A stretch of DNA of 64,000 nt, from contig NC_086097.1 of NCBI RefSeq assembly GCF_963921235.1, positions 49,850,001 to 49,914,000 on the forward strand, written 5' to 3'. Below the pieces are notes generated by a model. The model had not been told where the DNA came from. It did no database searches and saw only the letters and a list, made by a program, of their open reading frames with translations. This document shows, one piece after another, positions 22,131 to 40,919 of this stretch (within the stretch, counting starts at the first letter, position 1; the number at the start of each line of letters is the position of its first letter). The position numbers were made by a program, and so were the translations under genes. Source of the stretch: Mobula hypostoma (lineage: Eukaryota).

Positions 22131-22168
22131 CAGTCGACGTTTCAGGCCGAGACCCTTCGTCAGGACTA
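22131..22168 (-). ncRNA. Minimal type I hammerhead ribozyme motif
   Basis: Minus strand reads TAGTC-CTGACGA-AGGGTCTCGGCCT-GAAAC-GTC-GACTG. Confidence 0.75.
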
Positions 22169-22938
22169 ACTGAAGGAAGAGTGAGTAAGGGATTTGAAAG
22201 TTGGAGGGGGAGGGGGAGATCCAAAATGATAGGAGAAGACAAGAGGGGGAGGGATGGAGCCAAGAGCTGGACAGGTGATAGGCAAAAGGGGATACGAGAG
22301 GATCATGGGACAGGAGGTCCGGGAAGAAAGACAGGGGGGGGGGACCCAGAGGATGGGCAAGAGGTATATTCAGAGGGACAGAGGGAGAAAAAGGAGAGTG
22401 AGAGAAAGAATGTGTGCATAAAAATGAGTAACAGATGGGGTACGAGGGGGAGGTGGGGCCTTAGCGGAAGTTAGAGAAGTCGATGTTCATGCCATCAGGT
22501 TGGAGGCTACCCAGACGGAATATAAGGTGTTGTTCCTCCAACCTGAGTGTGGCTTCATCTTTACAGTAGAGGAGGCCGGCTTCATCTTTACAGTAGAGGA
22601 GGCCATATCAGCTAAGGCCCCACCTCCCCCTCGTATCCGCTAAGGCCCCACCTCCCCCTCGTACCCCATCTGTTACTCATTTTTATGCACACATTCTTTC
22701 TCTCACTCTCCTTTTTCTCCCTCTGTCCCTCTGAATATACCTCTTGCCCATCCTCTGGGTCCCCCCCCCACTTTGTCTTTCTTCCCGGACCTCCTGTCCC
22801 ATGATCCTCTCGTATCCCCTTTTGCCTATCACCTGTCCAGCTCTTGGCTCTATCCCTCCCCCTCTTGTCTTCTCCTATCATTTTGGATCTCCCCCTCCCC
22901 CTCCAACTTTCAAATCTCTTACTCACTCTTCCTTCAGT

Positions 22939-22976
22939 TAGTCCTGACGAAGGGTCTCGGCCTGAAACGTCGACTG
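22939..22976 (+). ncRNA. Minimal type I hammerhead ribozyme motif
   Basis: TAGTC (stem I) CTGACGA (core) AGGGTCTCGGCCT (stem II) GAAAC GTC (cleavage triplet 22969-22971) GACTG (stem I'). Confidence 0.75.
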
Positions 22977-23240
22977 CACCTCTTCCTACAGATGCTGCCT
23001 GGCCTGCTGCGTTCACCAGCAACTTTGATGTGTGTTGCTTGAATTTCCAGCATCTGCAGAATTCCTGTTGTTTGATTGAAACATATTGGTTGAATAAAGG
23101 GAAAAGAAACTTACATTTATGTGGAGCCTTTCATGACTTCAGAATCATTGTTTTAAATGTTACTAGCATCCAGCCTAGAGTGGCTTTTGCTGTTAAGTAG
23201 AATCTGTTTAATATAGATATGAAATTCAATGTACCTATAC

Positions 23241-23455
23241 AAACAAGAGAAAATCTTCAGATGCTGGAAATGCAAGCAACACACTCAAAATGCTGGAGGA
23301 ACTCAGCAGGACAGGCAGCATATATGGAAAGAGGATAGTCGACATTTCGGGCCGAGACCAATCTTGATAAAGGGTCTTGGCCCAAAACGTCAACTGTACT
23401 CTTTTCCATAGATGTTGCCTGGCCTGCTGAGTTCCTCCAGCAATTTGTGTATGTC
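23241..23455. mobile_element. Miniature fold-back Penelope pseudo-LTR with decayed hammerheads at its centre
   Basis: Inverted arms; centre AGTCGACATTTCGGGCCGAGACC / TTGATAAAGGGTCTTGGCCCAAAACGTCAACT. Confidence 0.8.
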
Positions 23456-23603
23456 GATGTTTATATGATGCCATTACTGTCCTATGTGTTATGAGTTACT
23501 TATAATACAATAAGAAACGTGCTAAATTGGAACCAATTAGCACAATACTGGAAATAGCTATTTCCCTCTGACCGCCTAAAATTCATTATACATGTTCTCC
23601 CAG

Positions 23604-36992: not shown

Positions 36993-39656
36993 TATAGCCT
37001 ATGTCTGTTAGCCTATGCCAGTACTAAATATAGTTCCACATATCAACCAATTTTACCAATCTGTCTATTGCTTCTAAAGTCTGTCTAAAGTCTTCAACAA
37101 TCCTGCTAACTATTAAGCATATTGTCAATTTTGTTTCAATTTAGGTTTCAGATTAACATATAACAAGAAAAGCTTTGGTCCTAATTTGACCTGCAGTGGA
37201 TCCTACTGCACACATCTGTCCAGTTCGATGGTTTCCAACCTGGGGTCTACGGACCCCCTACTTAATGGCATTGGTCCATGGCATAAACATAAAGAAATTC
37301 GGAATCCTTGGTCTAGTTGGAGAATGAATTCTTAATTACTGCTCTTCGTTTCTTATCTCTTGGCCAATGGCATTTTTAGTTATTCATGGACAAGTTGTGA
37401 CCATGATTCAGAAGGACAGTGTTTCCTTTCCATCCTAAATTAATTTGAGAAAGTAGCAAATTCTGTCTTTAACTATTCTAATGTGTGCAGTGAAGTTATG
37501 CTTAAGAGTTCTTTCAGGGAGTTTGAGGACACATTTCTAAGTCAGTGTTGTGTCTGACCTATAGTGGAATATGAGGTAGTGGAGTTTGCATATACTTACT
37601 CCATTTTAGTTAGCAGAGATTATGGATTTGGATGAGAATTTGACAAAAAAATGATGAGTTGAAAGTAAATTTAATTTCAAAGTACATGTATGTCACCATA
37701 TGCTACCCTGAGATTCATTTTCTTGTGGGAATTCAGCCACCATTCACTCGATACACTGAGTTACCTCAGTGTATCTAGTAGATGACTGGCTGAAATACAA
37801 ATTCCAAATCTTCATTTTGAGCGTAGAATACATTTCATGTTATATTTTTGCTGCATAAATCTTTGATTTCTGACTTTTTCATATTACATTTATTCTTTGG
37901 TCAGGAGTATTTTTGTTTTTTGAATGATTACTTGGCAAATATATTGCATTTGGGATAACTTAAAAAGATCTTGTACAAAAATATTATTTGTATTAAAATA
38001 TTCTAGGAGCATTTTTTGTAAAATATACCTTAATTTGCATTACTTTTTTAAAACAAATTAGACATGCAGTATTGTTGACTTGCATTTGAAAGGTAATCGT
38101 TCTAAAGCATGGGGTTGAATTTTTAAACTAACACTTAACAGTTGGTGTTTAATGGAAGATGTTTCGTGTAAATTGCATCAGCGTGGTGCATGTCACAACA
38201 TGTTTTGCATCATTGCTGGTTTTGTCCAACTCAATATTACGAGATCACTTTGGACAGCGGGAAGGAAAAAGGTTTGAGAATATTTCACTCTCTGAGAGAT
38301 AGAAGAAAATCAAAAGTTTAGTTGTGTATGGACTCATTTCCATTTACAAATAGACGTAGGAACAAAACAATGGGAATATCTGTAAGAAACTAGCTAATTT
38401 GTATATAGTATCGATATATGAGTCATTAAACTTAATGATATGTGATACCTCTACATCATTGAATCAACTCTTACATGTTAATAAGATATAATACTTATAA
38501 AAGCAAATCATGCAAGATTTTTTTGTACTCTTAAGGTAATGTAAAAATGGTAAAAAGAAGTGAAGAAACAAGCAGCAGACAAAAACTTTATTGCAAAAAG
38601 AAAATAACTTTGTAGAAACTATTATCTCATTCTTGGCATCAAAGGGATGAAAAGTTGGCCACACCTGAATCATGTGCTTAAAGGGATTTTGAATTACATA
38701 TTTTGGAATGGCCTGATTAAGTAACTAACATAGCAATGAATTAGGAAGAAAGTGAAAAGTAATGATGGTGTAGAAGATGAATATGCTTTCAACTCCATGT
38801 ATGGCTGGATTATCAATGAGAGTTAGAAAATAGAACTTTGATATGGTTGCTGAGAAGAAAGCAATTTTACACATGAAATAATTGATAATTGAACAAGAAT
38901 TTGTAACCAAGAGGAATAGACATAAACTCGAATCAAGATAACAGAAGCAGTGAGGTTAAAGCATAGCACAAATCTGTAAAGGTAAGTAGGCTATTAACCC
39001 TTCAGTTGTACTAGTTAATTTGTCAGAGCTGTGTACATCAAAACTCCATTTATCTATTTTTTGTCTGTCTCCCTTAATGTTTTGATAAATTTTGAACAAA
39101 ACATGACTATTATTGAGGATATGAAGGGAAGGAAAAGTTATCGAATTTGATAACACTAGTTTCAGTTTTTTTGGGGAGTGAGCACCAAAATTCTTCTAAA
39201 TTTTGCATTAAATAATTTTCTTTATTTCAGTACTAATTCCCTTGAGACAATTTTATGAATTTGTCCTTTGTTGAAATGCAAAAAAATTGCAGTGGTGGAA
39301 ATCTGACCTGTGGAACTCTGAAAATGCTTCCATTATTTCATTTGTGGCAAGAGGTATGGAATTAATGTTTCGGGTCAATAAACTTCATCAGAACAGAAAA
39401 AGTGAGAATATTTTAAGATGCAGAGAGGACAAAATGAATGTTTTTATTCGGATGGAAATTAAGATAGAGCAGGTGACTTCTCTCTTGGTTTCCACTCAGT
39501 CACAGATATTCCCTTTGTTTCTCATCCCCCAACTAAACTGAAACACAATTGTTTATCACTTTTTCAATTCCAGTGGTTGCTGACCGAAAATGTAACTCGA
39601 TTGCCTTCTCTGATGATTGGTACATTTTGCTTATATTTTATTCATTCTTTCCTTAG

Positions 39657-39770
39657 ATGGTGGCACAATTAGACCCACTCCTCTGTATGGCCAACCATCG
39701 TGGTGGGGAGATGATGATGTGGATAACAAAGGAGAAAGAGGTGAACTGAAGAAAACTGATTCCATGAAAG
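39657..39770 (+). CDS. CEP170B: CEP170B-like coding exon 6
   Basis: CCTTAG|(D)GGTIRPTPLYGQPSWWGDDD...SMK-G|GTATTT; conserved TPLYGQPSWWG; phase 1-1. Confidence 0.93.
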
Positions 39771-39929
39771 GTATTTGTCAGTTTATAAAATTAACCAACT
39801 GATTTGCCATATTTATTTGTCAATGTAATCTTAGTTGGATTTTAGAAGCAGCACAGTTTACCATGTGAATAGGAATAAGTCCGCAAACCCTTATGATGTT
39901 ATAGCCAGATTCACTCAGCAGTCTGATTG

Positions 39930-40470
39930 GAACTGAATTGACTTTATTTCTTACATCCTTCACATACATGAGGAGTAAAATTCTTTACGTTATGTCTCTG
40001 TCTGAATGTGCAAAATAGTAATTTAGAATAAATAGTAAGATATACAACAGAACAGTCAAGATAACTTAGAAATATAATTGTGTCAGCATATGACACGATC
40101 TGATGGCCTGGTGGAAGAAGCTGTCTCGGAGCCTGTTGGTTCTGGCTTTAATATTGTGGTACTGTTTCCTGGATGGTGGCAGCTGGAACAGTTTGTGGTT
40201 GGGGTGACTCAGGTCCCCAATAATCCTTTGGGCCCTTTTTTACGCACCTGTCACTGTAAATGTCCTGAATAGTGGGAAGTTCACATCCGCAGATACATTG
40301 GGCTGTCCGCACTACTCTCTGCAGAGTCCTGCGATGAGGGAAGTGCAGCTCCCATACCAGGCAGTGATGCAGCCAGTCAGGATGCTCTCAATTGTGCCCC
40401 TGTAGAAAGTCCTTAGGATTCGGGGACTCATGCCAAACTTCTTCAACTGTCTGAGGTGAAAGAGGCACTG
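39930..40470 (-). mobile_element. Rex1/Babar-like LINE 3' fragment
   Basis: Minus-strand FYRGTIESILTGCITAWYGSCT..HPNHKLFQLPPSRK..RLRDSFFHQAIR; repeated AATTG/AACTG tail. Confidence 0.8.
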
Positions 40471-40656
40471 TTTCAGATGCAATCAGTTAGAGATATTCAT
40501 TTCAGGAGTTTCTTCTAGAGAAATCAAAAGTGCTATAAAAGTATGCTTATTTTCATATGTTTCTTCATTGATTTTTTAACCTAGTGAAATAAATTGCAAG
40601 GCAGGTAAATGGCATTTAACCATGCATAATCAACAAAATAAATTCCTTTCCCCAAG

Positions 40657-40919
40657 AAATGCTGGTGAACGCAGCAGGTCAGGCAGCATCTATAGGAAGA
40701 GGTACAGTCGACGTTTCGGGCCGAGACCCTTCGTCAGGACTAACTGAAAGAAGAGATAGTAAGAGATTTGAAAGTGGGAGGGGGAGATCCAAAGTGATAG
40801 GAGAAGACGGGAGGGGAAGGGAGGGAGCTAAGAGCTGGAAAGTCGATTGGCAAAAGGTATACAAGGCTGGAGAAGGGAGAAGATCATGGGACGGGAAGCC
40901 TAGGGAGAAAGAAAGGGGG
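40657..40919 (-). mobile_element. Penelope pseudo-LTR fragment
   Basis: Highly similar to the 22072, 31624 and 36839 copies; no TSD found. Confidence 0.85.
40705..40742 (-). ncRNA. Minimal type I hammerhead ribozyme motif
   Basis: Minus strand TAGTC-CTGACGA-AGGGTCTCGGCCC-GAAAC-GTC-GACTG. Confidence 0.78.

What the first reader, a model, noticed from the sequence alone, without database searches (positions are those of the whole stretch)
22131..40742. Family of minimal hammerhead ribozyme motifs carried by Penelope-like pseudo-LTRs
Seen: a 38-nt motif TAGTC-CTGACGA-AGGGTCTCGGCCY-GAAAC-GTC-GACTG at 22131-22168(-), 22939-22976(+), 31721-31758(-), 34740-34777(-, one stem II/loop change) and 40705-40742(-). 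A near-intact copy lies at 36901-36938(-) and decayed copies at ~813, ~14411, ~23360 and ~33800. It has the hammerhead core (CUGANGA, GAAA, GUC), a 5-bp stem I (UAGUC/GACUG) and a stem II hairpin preceded by one extra A. Stem III is reduced to the loop-less palindrome ACGU. Established: Penelope-like elements carry minimal type I hammerheads in their pseudo-LTRs, and such motifs with a palindromic stem III cleave as double-hammerhead dimers. Inference: about 10 copies in 64 kb implies a very large genome-wide ribozyme family, mostly spread as short non-coding units. I cannot tell whether it is described for this lineage.
Basis: partly seen in the sequence, partly recalled or inferred. Interest (0 to 1): 0.8.

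Follow-up and report, generated by a model that had tools for sequence, protein, structure and literature searches.

The report
Penelope retroelement tails with minimal hammerheads
The repeated 38-base motif is the small hammerhead-ribozyme motif carried near the tail of a very abundant Penelope-like jumping gene in a ray genome; this kind is already described, and the copies here look like inert intronic leftovers copied from uncut RNA.

Summary
Observation confirmed: all six motifs lie at the stated coordinates (0-3 mismatches; none in shuffles). They sit behind the ORF of an RT + GIY-YIG Penelope-like element (PLE) with a Neptune-type cysteine linker. The host is a ray; all six copies lie in CEP170B introns. 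Genome-wide: 41,517 exact and 118,139 core-intact copies. They are 5'-truncated ends of an autonomous element, not a separate non-coding family; about 766 pLTR-ORF-start junctions exist. Against activity in the copies: no pile-up of 5' ends at the predicted cut (630 versus 532 and 604 in neighbouring windows); 87% of exact copies carry G10.1·U11.1; folding favours locked forms; five of six are antisense, and the sixth sits in a long hairpin. This fits the protein-assisted hammerhead of Anolis Poseidon, dispensable for insertion in vitro (PMC11167929). Cleavage is untested; no RNA evidence was available. One lead: a 3' splice-site-like signal abuts stem I and pairs with the core. Known kind (PMC4209133); this scan has reported it repeatedly elsewhere in this genome.

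The parts
22131..22168 (-). Minimal hammerhead motif, core intact, U11.1 type; left arm of an inverted composite insertion
22939..22976 (+). Minimal hammerhead motif, core intact, predicted cut after 22971; the only intact sense-strand copy, fully paired with the inverted arm when 22061-23075 is folded
22063..23072 (.). One inverted composite PLE insertion: - arm 22063-22578 (-445 to about +66, no tail) and + arm 22643-23072 (-329 to +101, tailed); 13-bp target-site duplication at 22059 and 23071; in the CEP170B intron between the exons at about 16892 and 23601
22461..22578 (-). C-terminal end of the PLE ORF (end of the GIY-YIG endonuclease, then stop), followed by about 330 nt of pyrimidine-rich 3' region before the predicted cut
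22918..22941 (+). Branch-point-like pentamer, polypyrimidine tract and two AGs (22936-37 and 22940-41, the second inside stem I): 3' splice-site-like by sequence only; this stretch is also predicted to pair with the 5' half of the core
   Evidence: function inferred
31625..32221 (.). Second inverted composite: - arm 31625-32152 (-428 to +101; hammerhead 31721-31758, C11.1 type) and + arm 32153-32221 (-3 to +65); 14-bp target-site duplication
34644..34797 (-). Solo 5'-truncated copy (-52 to +101); hammerhead 34740-34777 with one loop II change; 13-bp flanking duplication
36844..36982 (-). Solo copy (-76 to +64); motif 36901-36938 with a broken stem I pair and a broken stem III palindrome
40660..40919 (-). 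Solo copy (about -200 to +50); hammerhead 40705-40742 intact, C11.1 type
23242..23454 (.). Older-subfamily inverted pair (-18 to +101 and -29 to +64); + arm core decayed, - arm lacks the 5' core
809..846 (+). Decayed older-subfamily motif, preceded by a 71%-identical endonuclease remnant at 5-529
14411..14447 (+). Decayed older-subfamily motif
33788..33825 (+). Decayed older-subfamily motif
16892..62907 (+). Host gene CEP170B (context): coding exons near 16892, 23601, 24006, 30394, 30533, 39656, 48011, 48801, 52417, 53679 and 62674; all six flagged motifs are intronic

Best explanation
The motif is the minimal type I hammerhead in the pseudo-LTR of a recently very active, Neptune-type, endonuclease-positive Penelope-like retrotransposon (unit about 3.5 kb) of a ray. 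Shown: it lies about 330 nt behind the ORF stop, and 65 or 101-105 nt before the two 3' ends of insertions. Inferred mechanism: the element protein starts reverse transcription at two internal sites (+65 and +101/105), primed by staggered cuts that leave duplications of about 13 bp. It copies straight through the uncut hammerhead and usually stops early, often within -75 to +10. Priming at both cuts gives inverted pairs with one tailed and one untailed arm. The ribozyme is latent: free RNA folds into locked forms, and cleavage, if it happens, needs a second copy (ACGU/ACGU stem III) and probably the element protein, on transcripts of the rare tandem pLTR-ORF-pLTR copies. The window's copies are dead intronic insertions.
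For: ORF linkage: translations show an RT YIDD motif, a C-x4-C-x2-C linker and GIY-YIG (Pfam GIY-YIG E=1.7e-4, 22.2 bits, just under the 22.6 cut-off). 135 scored RT matches at 89-100% identity, open frames up to 935 aa. Homologues in other rays, sharks and marine invertebrates. 766 pLTR-ORF-start junctions. L091/L068 show pLTR remnant, ORF and pLTR inside a near-perfect 12-bp duplication. 3' ends cluster at two sites, and 21 of 21 inverted composites have one tailed and one untailed arm (p=5e-7 against 50:50), matching the two RT starts and the tail in PMC11167929 and PMC8557442. Uncut template: all 41,517 exact copies span the scissile bond; 5' ends at +1/0 number 630 against 532 (+5/+4) and 604 (-4/-5), 1.1-fold raw and 1.27-fold after a rough capture correction. 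Locked folds: core GACG pairs with CGUC (P 0.98); with 20 nt of upstream sequence the core pairs upstream (P 0.8-0.86); the double hammerhead scores -11.5 (U11.1) or -16.7 (C11.1) kcal/mol against -30.3 or -34.1 for the best dimer fold. PMC11167929 reports a PLE hammerhead that cleaves only with element protein and whose core mutants still insert.
Against: No cleavage or RNA-end data were obtained. Neptune placement rests on linker and domain order, not on a tree with named references. Nearest-neighbour folding ignores the tertiary core, so the locked folds may be overstated. Re-ligated or circular templates would also leave intact junctions. The small corrected excess at +1/0 (about 270 copies) leaves room for a minor cleaved template pool. 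Only one complete element end was seen (L091), and its 5' pLTR starts at +8 to +12, close to the cut.
Confidence: 0.8

Rival explanations
1. The hammerhead is an obligatory processing step: the two pLTR copies of a full-length transcript form a double hammerhead, both are cut, and the unit is ligated into a circle that templates more-than-unit cDNA (the tentative model in PMC4209133).
For: A ligated junction looks like an uncut one, so the intact copies fit. The majority sequences of old and young subfamilies share the core; 33 of 38 positions are identical against 24 of 46 upstream, and the five differences are a terminal stem I wobble, N7, 11.1 and two CpG-type changes. The one full-length copy seen starts just 3' of the cut.
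Against: No 5'-end peak at +1. The dominant subfamily has G·U at the conserved 10.1-11.1 pair (36,060 of 41,517). The downstream flank is almost as conserved (49 of 64). Anolis Poseidon core mutants insert normally in vitro, and no RNA-seq reads ended at its cut (PMC11167929).
Confidence: 0.2
2. In the expanding subfamily the motif is catalytically vestigial. It is kept as an RNA structure or protein-binding site next to the RT start sites, or simply hitch-hikes.
For: G10.1·U11.1 in 87% of exact copies; N7=C strengthens the self-lock; core against non-core non-CpG changes in 41 young copies were 3 of 410 versus 17 of 779, p=0.09; Naiad PLEs proliferate without canonical hammerheads (PMC8557442, passages).
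Against: No core position differs between the old and young majority sequences apart from CpG-type decay, while the upstream flank has turned over. Core-dependent cleavage with protein is reported for another PLE (PMC11167929).
Confidence: 0.25
3. The copies are an independent non-autonomous retrozyme or SINE-like family of short ribozyme units.
For: 17 of 30 sampled copies are short (5' end within -75 to +10). A 310-bp-period array of four pLTR-ORF-start junctions exists on contig C2.
Against: 5' ends are heterogeneous and continuous with ORF-bearing copies; the window's young copies match an ORF-bearing copy at 80-96%; the window holds no head-to-tail repeat of the motif.
Confidence: 0.04
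4. Intronic copies have been co-opted to cut or regulate the CEP170B pre-mRNA.
For: One intact copy is on the sense strand of an intron.
Against: That copy is sealed in a hairpin of about 410 bp; the other five are antisense; sense-strand older copies are decayed.
Confidence: 0.02

Closest known systems
Minimal hammerheads (min-HHR) in pLTRs of metazoan PLEs, including fish Xena, Poseidon and Neptune (Cervera and De la Pena 2014, PMC4209133)
   Same: Type I topology, CUGANGA plus one extra nucleotide, GAAA, palindromic 15.2/16.2 without loop III, short stem I, mostly single dispersed motifs from truncated PLEs, some close pairs on opposite strands.
   Different: Copy number (118,139 core-intact here against about 9,000 in Xenopus tropicalis and 4,000 in coelacanth, with different descriptors); very homogeneous young family; 4-bp stem II; G·U at 10.1-11.1 in the majority; no cartilaginous fish among the Fig. 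S3 and Table S1 species that I read.
Poseidon of Anolis carolinensis (Frangieh et al. 2024, PMC11167929)
   Same: Hammerhead in the pLTR upstream of two RT start sites that define an optional 30-40 bp tail; unprocessed RNA is the template.
   Different: There the ORF starts within the hammerhead; here the first ATG seen is about 30 nt after the tail (one copy), and the ORF has the Neptune-type cysteine linker.
Neptune clade of endonuclease-positive PLEs (as described in PMC8557442)
   Same: RT, CX2-5CxxC linker, C-terminal GIY-YIG; 5' truncation, inverted partner, tail at one end only.
   Different: No phylogenetic placement was done; Nematis shares the linker.
Non-LTR retrozymes (PMC7229834; bioRxiv 10.64898/2026.07.22.740005)
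   Same: Type I hammerhead, PLE-derived, comparable absolute number in axolotl (up to 120,000); reported for one sampled chondrichthyan.
   Different: Retrozymes are head-to-tail tandem monomers; the window's copies are solo or inverted truncations of the coding element.
Drosophila virilis Penelope hammerhead with an intron ending at helix I (PMC4209133)
   Same: A 3' splice-site-like signal abuts or overlaps the 5' strand of stem I.
   Different: The intron is established there; here it is only a sequence pattern, with no splice evidence.

Membership tests
PLE minimal type I hammerhead | Core CUGANGA, GAAA, NUH in type I order | tested here: met
   118,139 genome matches to a core descriptor, control 0
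PLE minimal type I hammerhead | Stems I and II can form; extra nucleotide between A9 and 10.1 | tested here: met
   P about 0.9 for both stems in the isolated 38-mer; 84% of cells paired against 16-43% when slid
PLE minimal type I hammerhead | Palindromic, loop-less stem III | tested here: met
   ACGU in five of six copies; broken at 36901
PLE minimal type I hammerhead | Conserved G10.1-C11.1 pair | tested here: inconclusive
   G-C in 5,457 and G·U in 36,060 exact copies; G-C in the old majority sequence; the pair is kept as a wobble
PLE minimal type I hammerhead | Compensatory changes in the stems | tested here: inconclusive
   14 copies: covariation 0.194 against 0.190 shuffled, 268 of 500 shuffles as high; changes are mainly one-sided
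PLE minimal type I hammerhead | Located in the pLTR of a PLE | tested here: met
PLE minimal type I hammerhead | Self-cleavage as a dimer or with protein | not testable with these tools
   needs an in vitro assay; the genomic proxy shows no peak at the cut
Endonuclease-positive Penelope-like element | Single ORF with RT and C-terminal GIY-YIG | tested here: met
   seen across several copies, as the long copies read carry a frameshift at a C-run before the endonuclease
Endonuclease-positive Penelope-like element | pLTR before the ORF start, inverted 5' partners, one-sided 30-40 bp tail | tested here: met
   (21 of 21)
Neptune clade | CX2-5CxxC linker between RT and endonuclease | tested here: met
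   C-x4-C-x2-C in L007, L019, L020, L024, L029; definition from PMC8557442
Neptune clade | RT groups with Neptune references in a tree | not tested
   no named reference set was on hand
Non-LTR retrozyme | Head-to-tail tandem monomers, each with a hammerhead | tested here: not met
   window copies are solo or inverted; the C2 array was not read
Rfam hammerhead families | Covariance-model match | tested here: not met
   no hammerhead family among 11 matches at E<=10

The most novel reading that the evidence does not exclude
The hammerhead is a splice-gated switch. The polypyrimidine tract of an intron ending at an AG inside stem I pairs with the core and keeps unspliced element RNA uncut, so it can be reverse-transcribed whole. 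Splicing to that AG removes the blocker and, with an exon ending in CAG, rebuilds stem I, so spliced RNA becomes cleavable. Support is computational only: branch-point-like pentamer, pyrimidine tract and AG in both the old and young subfamilies; P(stem I) 0.02 unspliced against 0.85 for a modelled splice from the best donor (-654) to the second AG, but 0.13 for the first AG, and the modelled form still carries the GACG/CGUC self-lock. It would tie PLE intron retention to ribozyme control in a vertebrate Neptune-type element.
Probability: 0.1. Interest if true: 0.65.

Novelty: new member of a known kind. Interest (0 to 1): 0.24.

Why it matters
The kind is known, so the value is as a test bed. 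With about 34 core-intact motifs per Mb and tens of thousands of young copies, this genome allows population-scale tests of the open question of what PLE hammerheads do. The first such test here (no peak of insertion 5' ends at the cut; strict tailed/untailed pairing of inverted arms) supports, from genomic copies, the in vitro result that uncut RNA is the template and that two RT starts are used within one insertion. A dominant G·U variant at a conserved pair and the splice-site-like blocker are cheap to assay.

Tried and rejected
Rfam scan: no hammerhead hit. DNA search of the genome with the repeat returned nothing because common words are skipped, which is uninformative. Pfam on the 290-aa RT fragment found no family. 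RNA evidence: no RNA holder listed; all 22 runs were contigs or of unknown kind. Laying four runs showed the element in organisms A-D but cannot show ends, strand or level; none of the 15 joints shown of 513 was a GT-AG skip from the -654 donor. The stem I covariation search failed by design, as terminal Ns were trimmed; it only showed 3,396 copies lacking the innermost C. Covariation on 14 copies did not exceed shuffles. Antisense bias of young solo or lone-arm intronic copies is 4 of 4, p=0.06, not significant. A record copy number was rejected, since axolotl has up to 120,000 retrozyme copies (PMC7229834). Lunse et al. 2017 could not be read. More full-length element ends could not be read, so the 5' boundary of complete elements rests on one copy.
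Full report
Observation. All six flagged motifs are present at the stated coordinates with 0-3 mismatches to the + copy, and 50 shuffles of the window gave none at up to 13 mismatches. The anatomy is as described: 5-bp stem I with a terminal U·G, CUGACGA, one extra A, a 4-bp stem II with a tetraloop, GAAAC, GUC, and a predicted cut after 22971. 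The 34740 change is in loop II. The 36901 copy has lost a stem I pair and the ACGU palindrome. The four decayed copies are real, and at least six more relics were found. Rfam reports no hammerhead in the window.

Host. The long ORF at 53811-55850 is CEP170_C. Its best relatives are CEP170B of Hypanus and Hemitrygon at 93-94%, then Pristis at 86% and sharks at 68-76%, so the host is most likely a stingray-like ray. Mapping three of these proteins on the window gives eleven + strand coding exons; all six motifs are intronic. The assembly is 3.48 Gb in 200 contigs.

What carries the motif. Upstream of the - copies at 22131 and 31721 lies the end of an ORF. In 30 genomic loci picked by the exact motif, the longer copies extend into an RT with a YIDD motif, a C-x4-C-x2-C linker and a GIY-YIG domain (Pfam GIY-YIG E=1.7e-4 for one of three proteins, E=0.074 for a second, nothing for the RT fragment). 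A protein search of the genome scored 135 of 162,211 candidates at 89-100% identity, with open frames up to 935 aa. Relatives occur in other rays (85-91%), sharks (67-72%) and marine invertebrates. One complete copy (L091 plus L068, contiguous on C55) reads: pLTR remnant from about +10 to +105, ORF start about 30 nt later, ORF, about 330 nt, hammerhead, +105; the unit is about 3.5 kb inside a near-perfect 12-bp duplication. The pLTR-ORF-start junction occurs 766 times at up to 3 mismatches. The linker and domain order fit Neptune as defined in PMC8557442; no tree was built.

Scale. The exact 34-mer occurs 41,517 times, a degenerate core descriptor 118,139 times and a 34-mer downstream of the cut 77,266 times; the reversed controls gave 0. 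That is 12 and 34 per Mb. Of the exact copies 5,457 have C11.1 and 36,060 have U11.1. The C form travels mostly with its own upstream variant, so U11.1 looks like a subfamily trait, not only CpG decay.

How the copies were made. Positions are relative to the predicted cut. The 3' ends cluster near +65 and +101/105. In 21 of 21 inverted composites found among the 91 loci and the window, one arm ends at +57 to +73 and the other at +95 to +108. This matches the optional tail and the two internal RT starts shown for Anolis Poseidon (PMC11167929), and the one-sided tail with an inverted partner in PMC8557442. Of seven window insertions examined, three have 13-14 bp flanking duplications, one a 9-bp match and three nothing convincing. 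Among 30 copies picked by a downstream motif, 17 start within -75 to +10, 3 within -330 to -76 and 10 further up; some of the 30 are two arms of one insertion. The copies are therefore truncations of the coding element, with a broad stop zone around the hammerhead.

Is the RNA cut? Genome-wide counts of copies whose similarity begins at +1/0, +5/+4 and -4/-5 were 630, 532 and 604. The ratio at the cut is 1.1 raw and 1.27 after a rough base-composition correction, an excess of about 270 copies. There is no sharp peak, so cut RNA is at most a minor template. Folding shows stems I and II in the isolated 38-mer, but the core GACG pairs with CGUC (P 0.98). With 20 nt of native upstream sequence the core pairs upstream instead (P 0.8-0.86). 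The double hammerhead is 17-19 kcal/mol above the best dimer fold. These energies omit tertiary stabilisation. In the window five motifs are antisense to the host, and the sense copy is fully paired with its inverted arm. No same-strand intact partner exists on the host transcript. No RNA data could test this.

Selection on the motif. The majority of 14 older-type hits (one is a misassigned young copy) and a young copy share 33 of 38 motif positions, 24 of 46 upstream and 49 of 64 downstream. The five differences are C-G to U·G at the end of stem I, N7, G-C to G·U at 10.1-11.1 and two CpG-type changes. This suggests that source elements kept the core, but the downstream block is nearly as conserved. 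In 41 young copies not picked on the motif (loci L001-L030 were left out, CpG positions other than G12 dropped), core changes were 3 of 410 and non-core 17 of 779, p=0.09. Covariation in 14 copies did not exceed shuffles.

A lead. Both subfamilies have a pyrimidine tract ending in an AG at stem I, most copies with a branch-point-like pentamer 14-33 nt upstream; the consensus used for branch point and donor is from my own knowledge. PMC4209133 reports that the intron of D. virilis Penelope ends at helix I. A modelled splice to the second AG restores stem I (0.85), one to the first AG does not (0.13). Stem I pairing alone could explain the AG, and a yTnAy pentamer is common in pyrimidine-rich DNA, so this is a hypothesis.

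Comparison with print. Read: PMC4209133, parts 1-2 of 4 and supplement parts 1-2 of 3; PMC11167929, parts 1-2 of 4; bioRxiv 10.64898/2026.07.22.740005, parts 1-3 of 5 (its supplements, which name the one chondrichthyan sampled and its families, were not seen); passages only of PMC8557442, PMC7229834, PMC6155905, PMC7761336 and PMC6765202. Lunse et al. 2017 was seen only as a title and through a review. PMC4209133 describes these motifs in fish Xena, Poseidon and Neptune elements, with low dimer activity in vitro; I saw no cartilaginous fish in its species lists. Searches for Penelope + hammerhead ribozyme + shark (one irrelevant paper) and hammerhead ribozyme + elasmobranch (none) found no description for this lineage, but Repbase and Dfam could not be checked, and the 2026 preprint reports retrozymes in one chondrichthyan. 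Earlier notes of this scan reached the same reading on other parts of this genome.

Verdict. A real motif, correctly recognised; a new member of a known kind at high density; the flagged copies are most likely inert. Interest 0.24.

Noticed in passing
G000:C2:157816730-157817693: Four pLTR-ORF-start junctions at a 310-bp period on one strand: possibly a tandem array of an internally deleted mini-element, which would place hammerheads head to tail like a retrozyme.
   Followed up: no
G000:C1:1876757-1877095: Hammerhead core, pLTR end, ORF-start junction and a second pLTR motif 259 bp further on the same strand: an internally deleted element with the core upstream of the ORF start.
   Followed up: partly
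L061-L090, about position 2367: Most of the top RT matches leave frame at the same C-run between RT and endonuclease; partly an effect of the query, but the run may be an unstable site.
   Followed up: no
window 27864-28538, 4410-4796, 46975-47505 and related repeats: Fragments of another retroelement family (RVT_1 hit; repeats D3, D8-D19); CR1-like by recalled motifs. Many PLE insertions in the fetched loci sit inside such repeats.
   Followed up: no
window 18262-18636: A 124-aa frame resembling the C-terminal endonuclease region of a non-LTR element (recalled resemblance; no Pfam hit).
   Followed up: partly
window 18084-18152: A/T-rich inverted repeat giving sub-threshold microRNA matches in Rfam; the similar hit at 6262-6373 is an old PLE inverted pair.
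   Followed up: partly
window 22968-22974 region of each intact copy: GUCGAC across the scissile bond is a second palindrome and drives a predicted inactive dimer.
   Followed up: partly
window 809, 14411, 21390, 33788, 51409 against 22131, 31721, 34740, 36901, 40705: Old decayed solo copies are mostly on the host sense strand and young intact ones antisense; the numbers are too small to test.
   Followed up: partly
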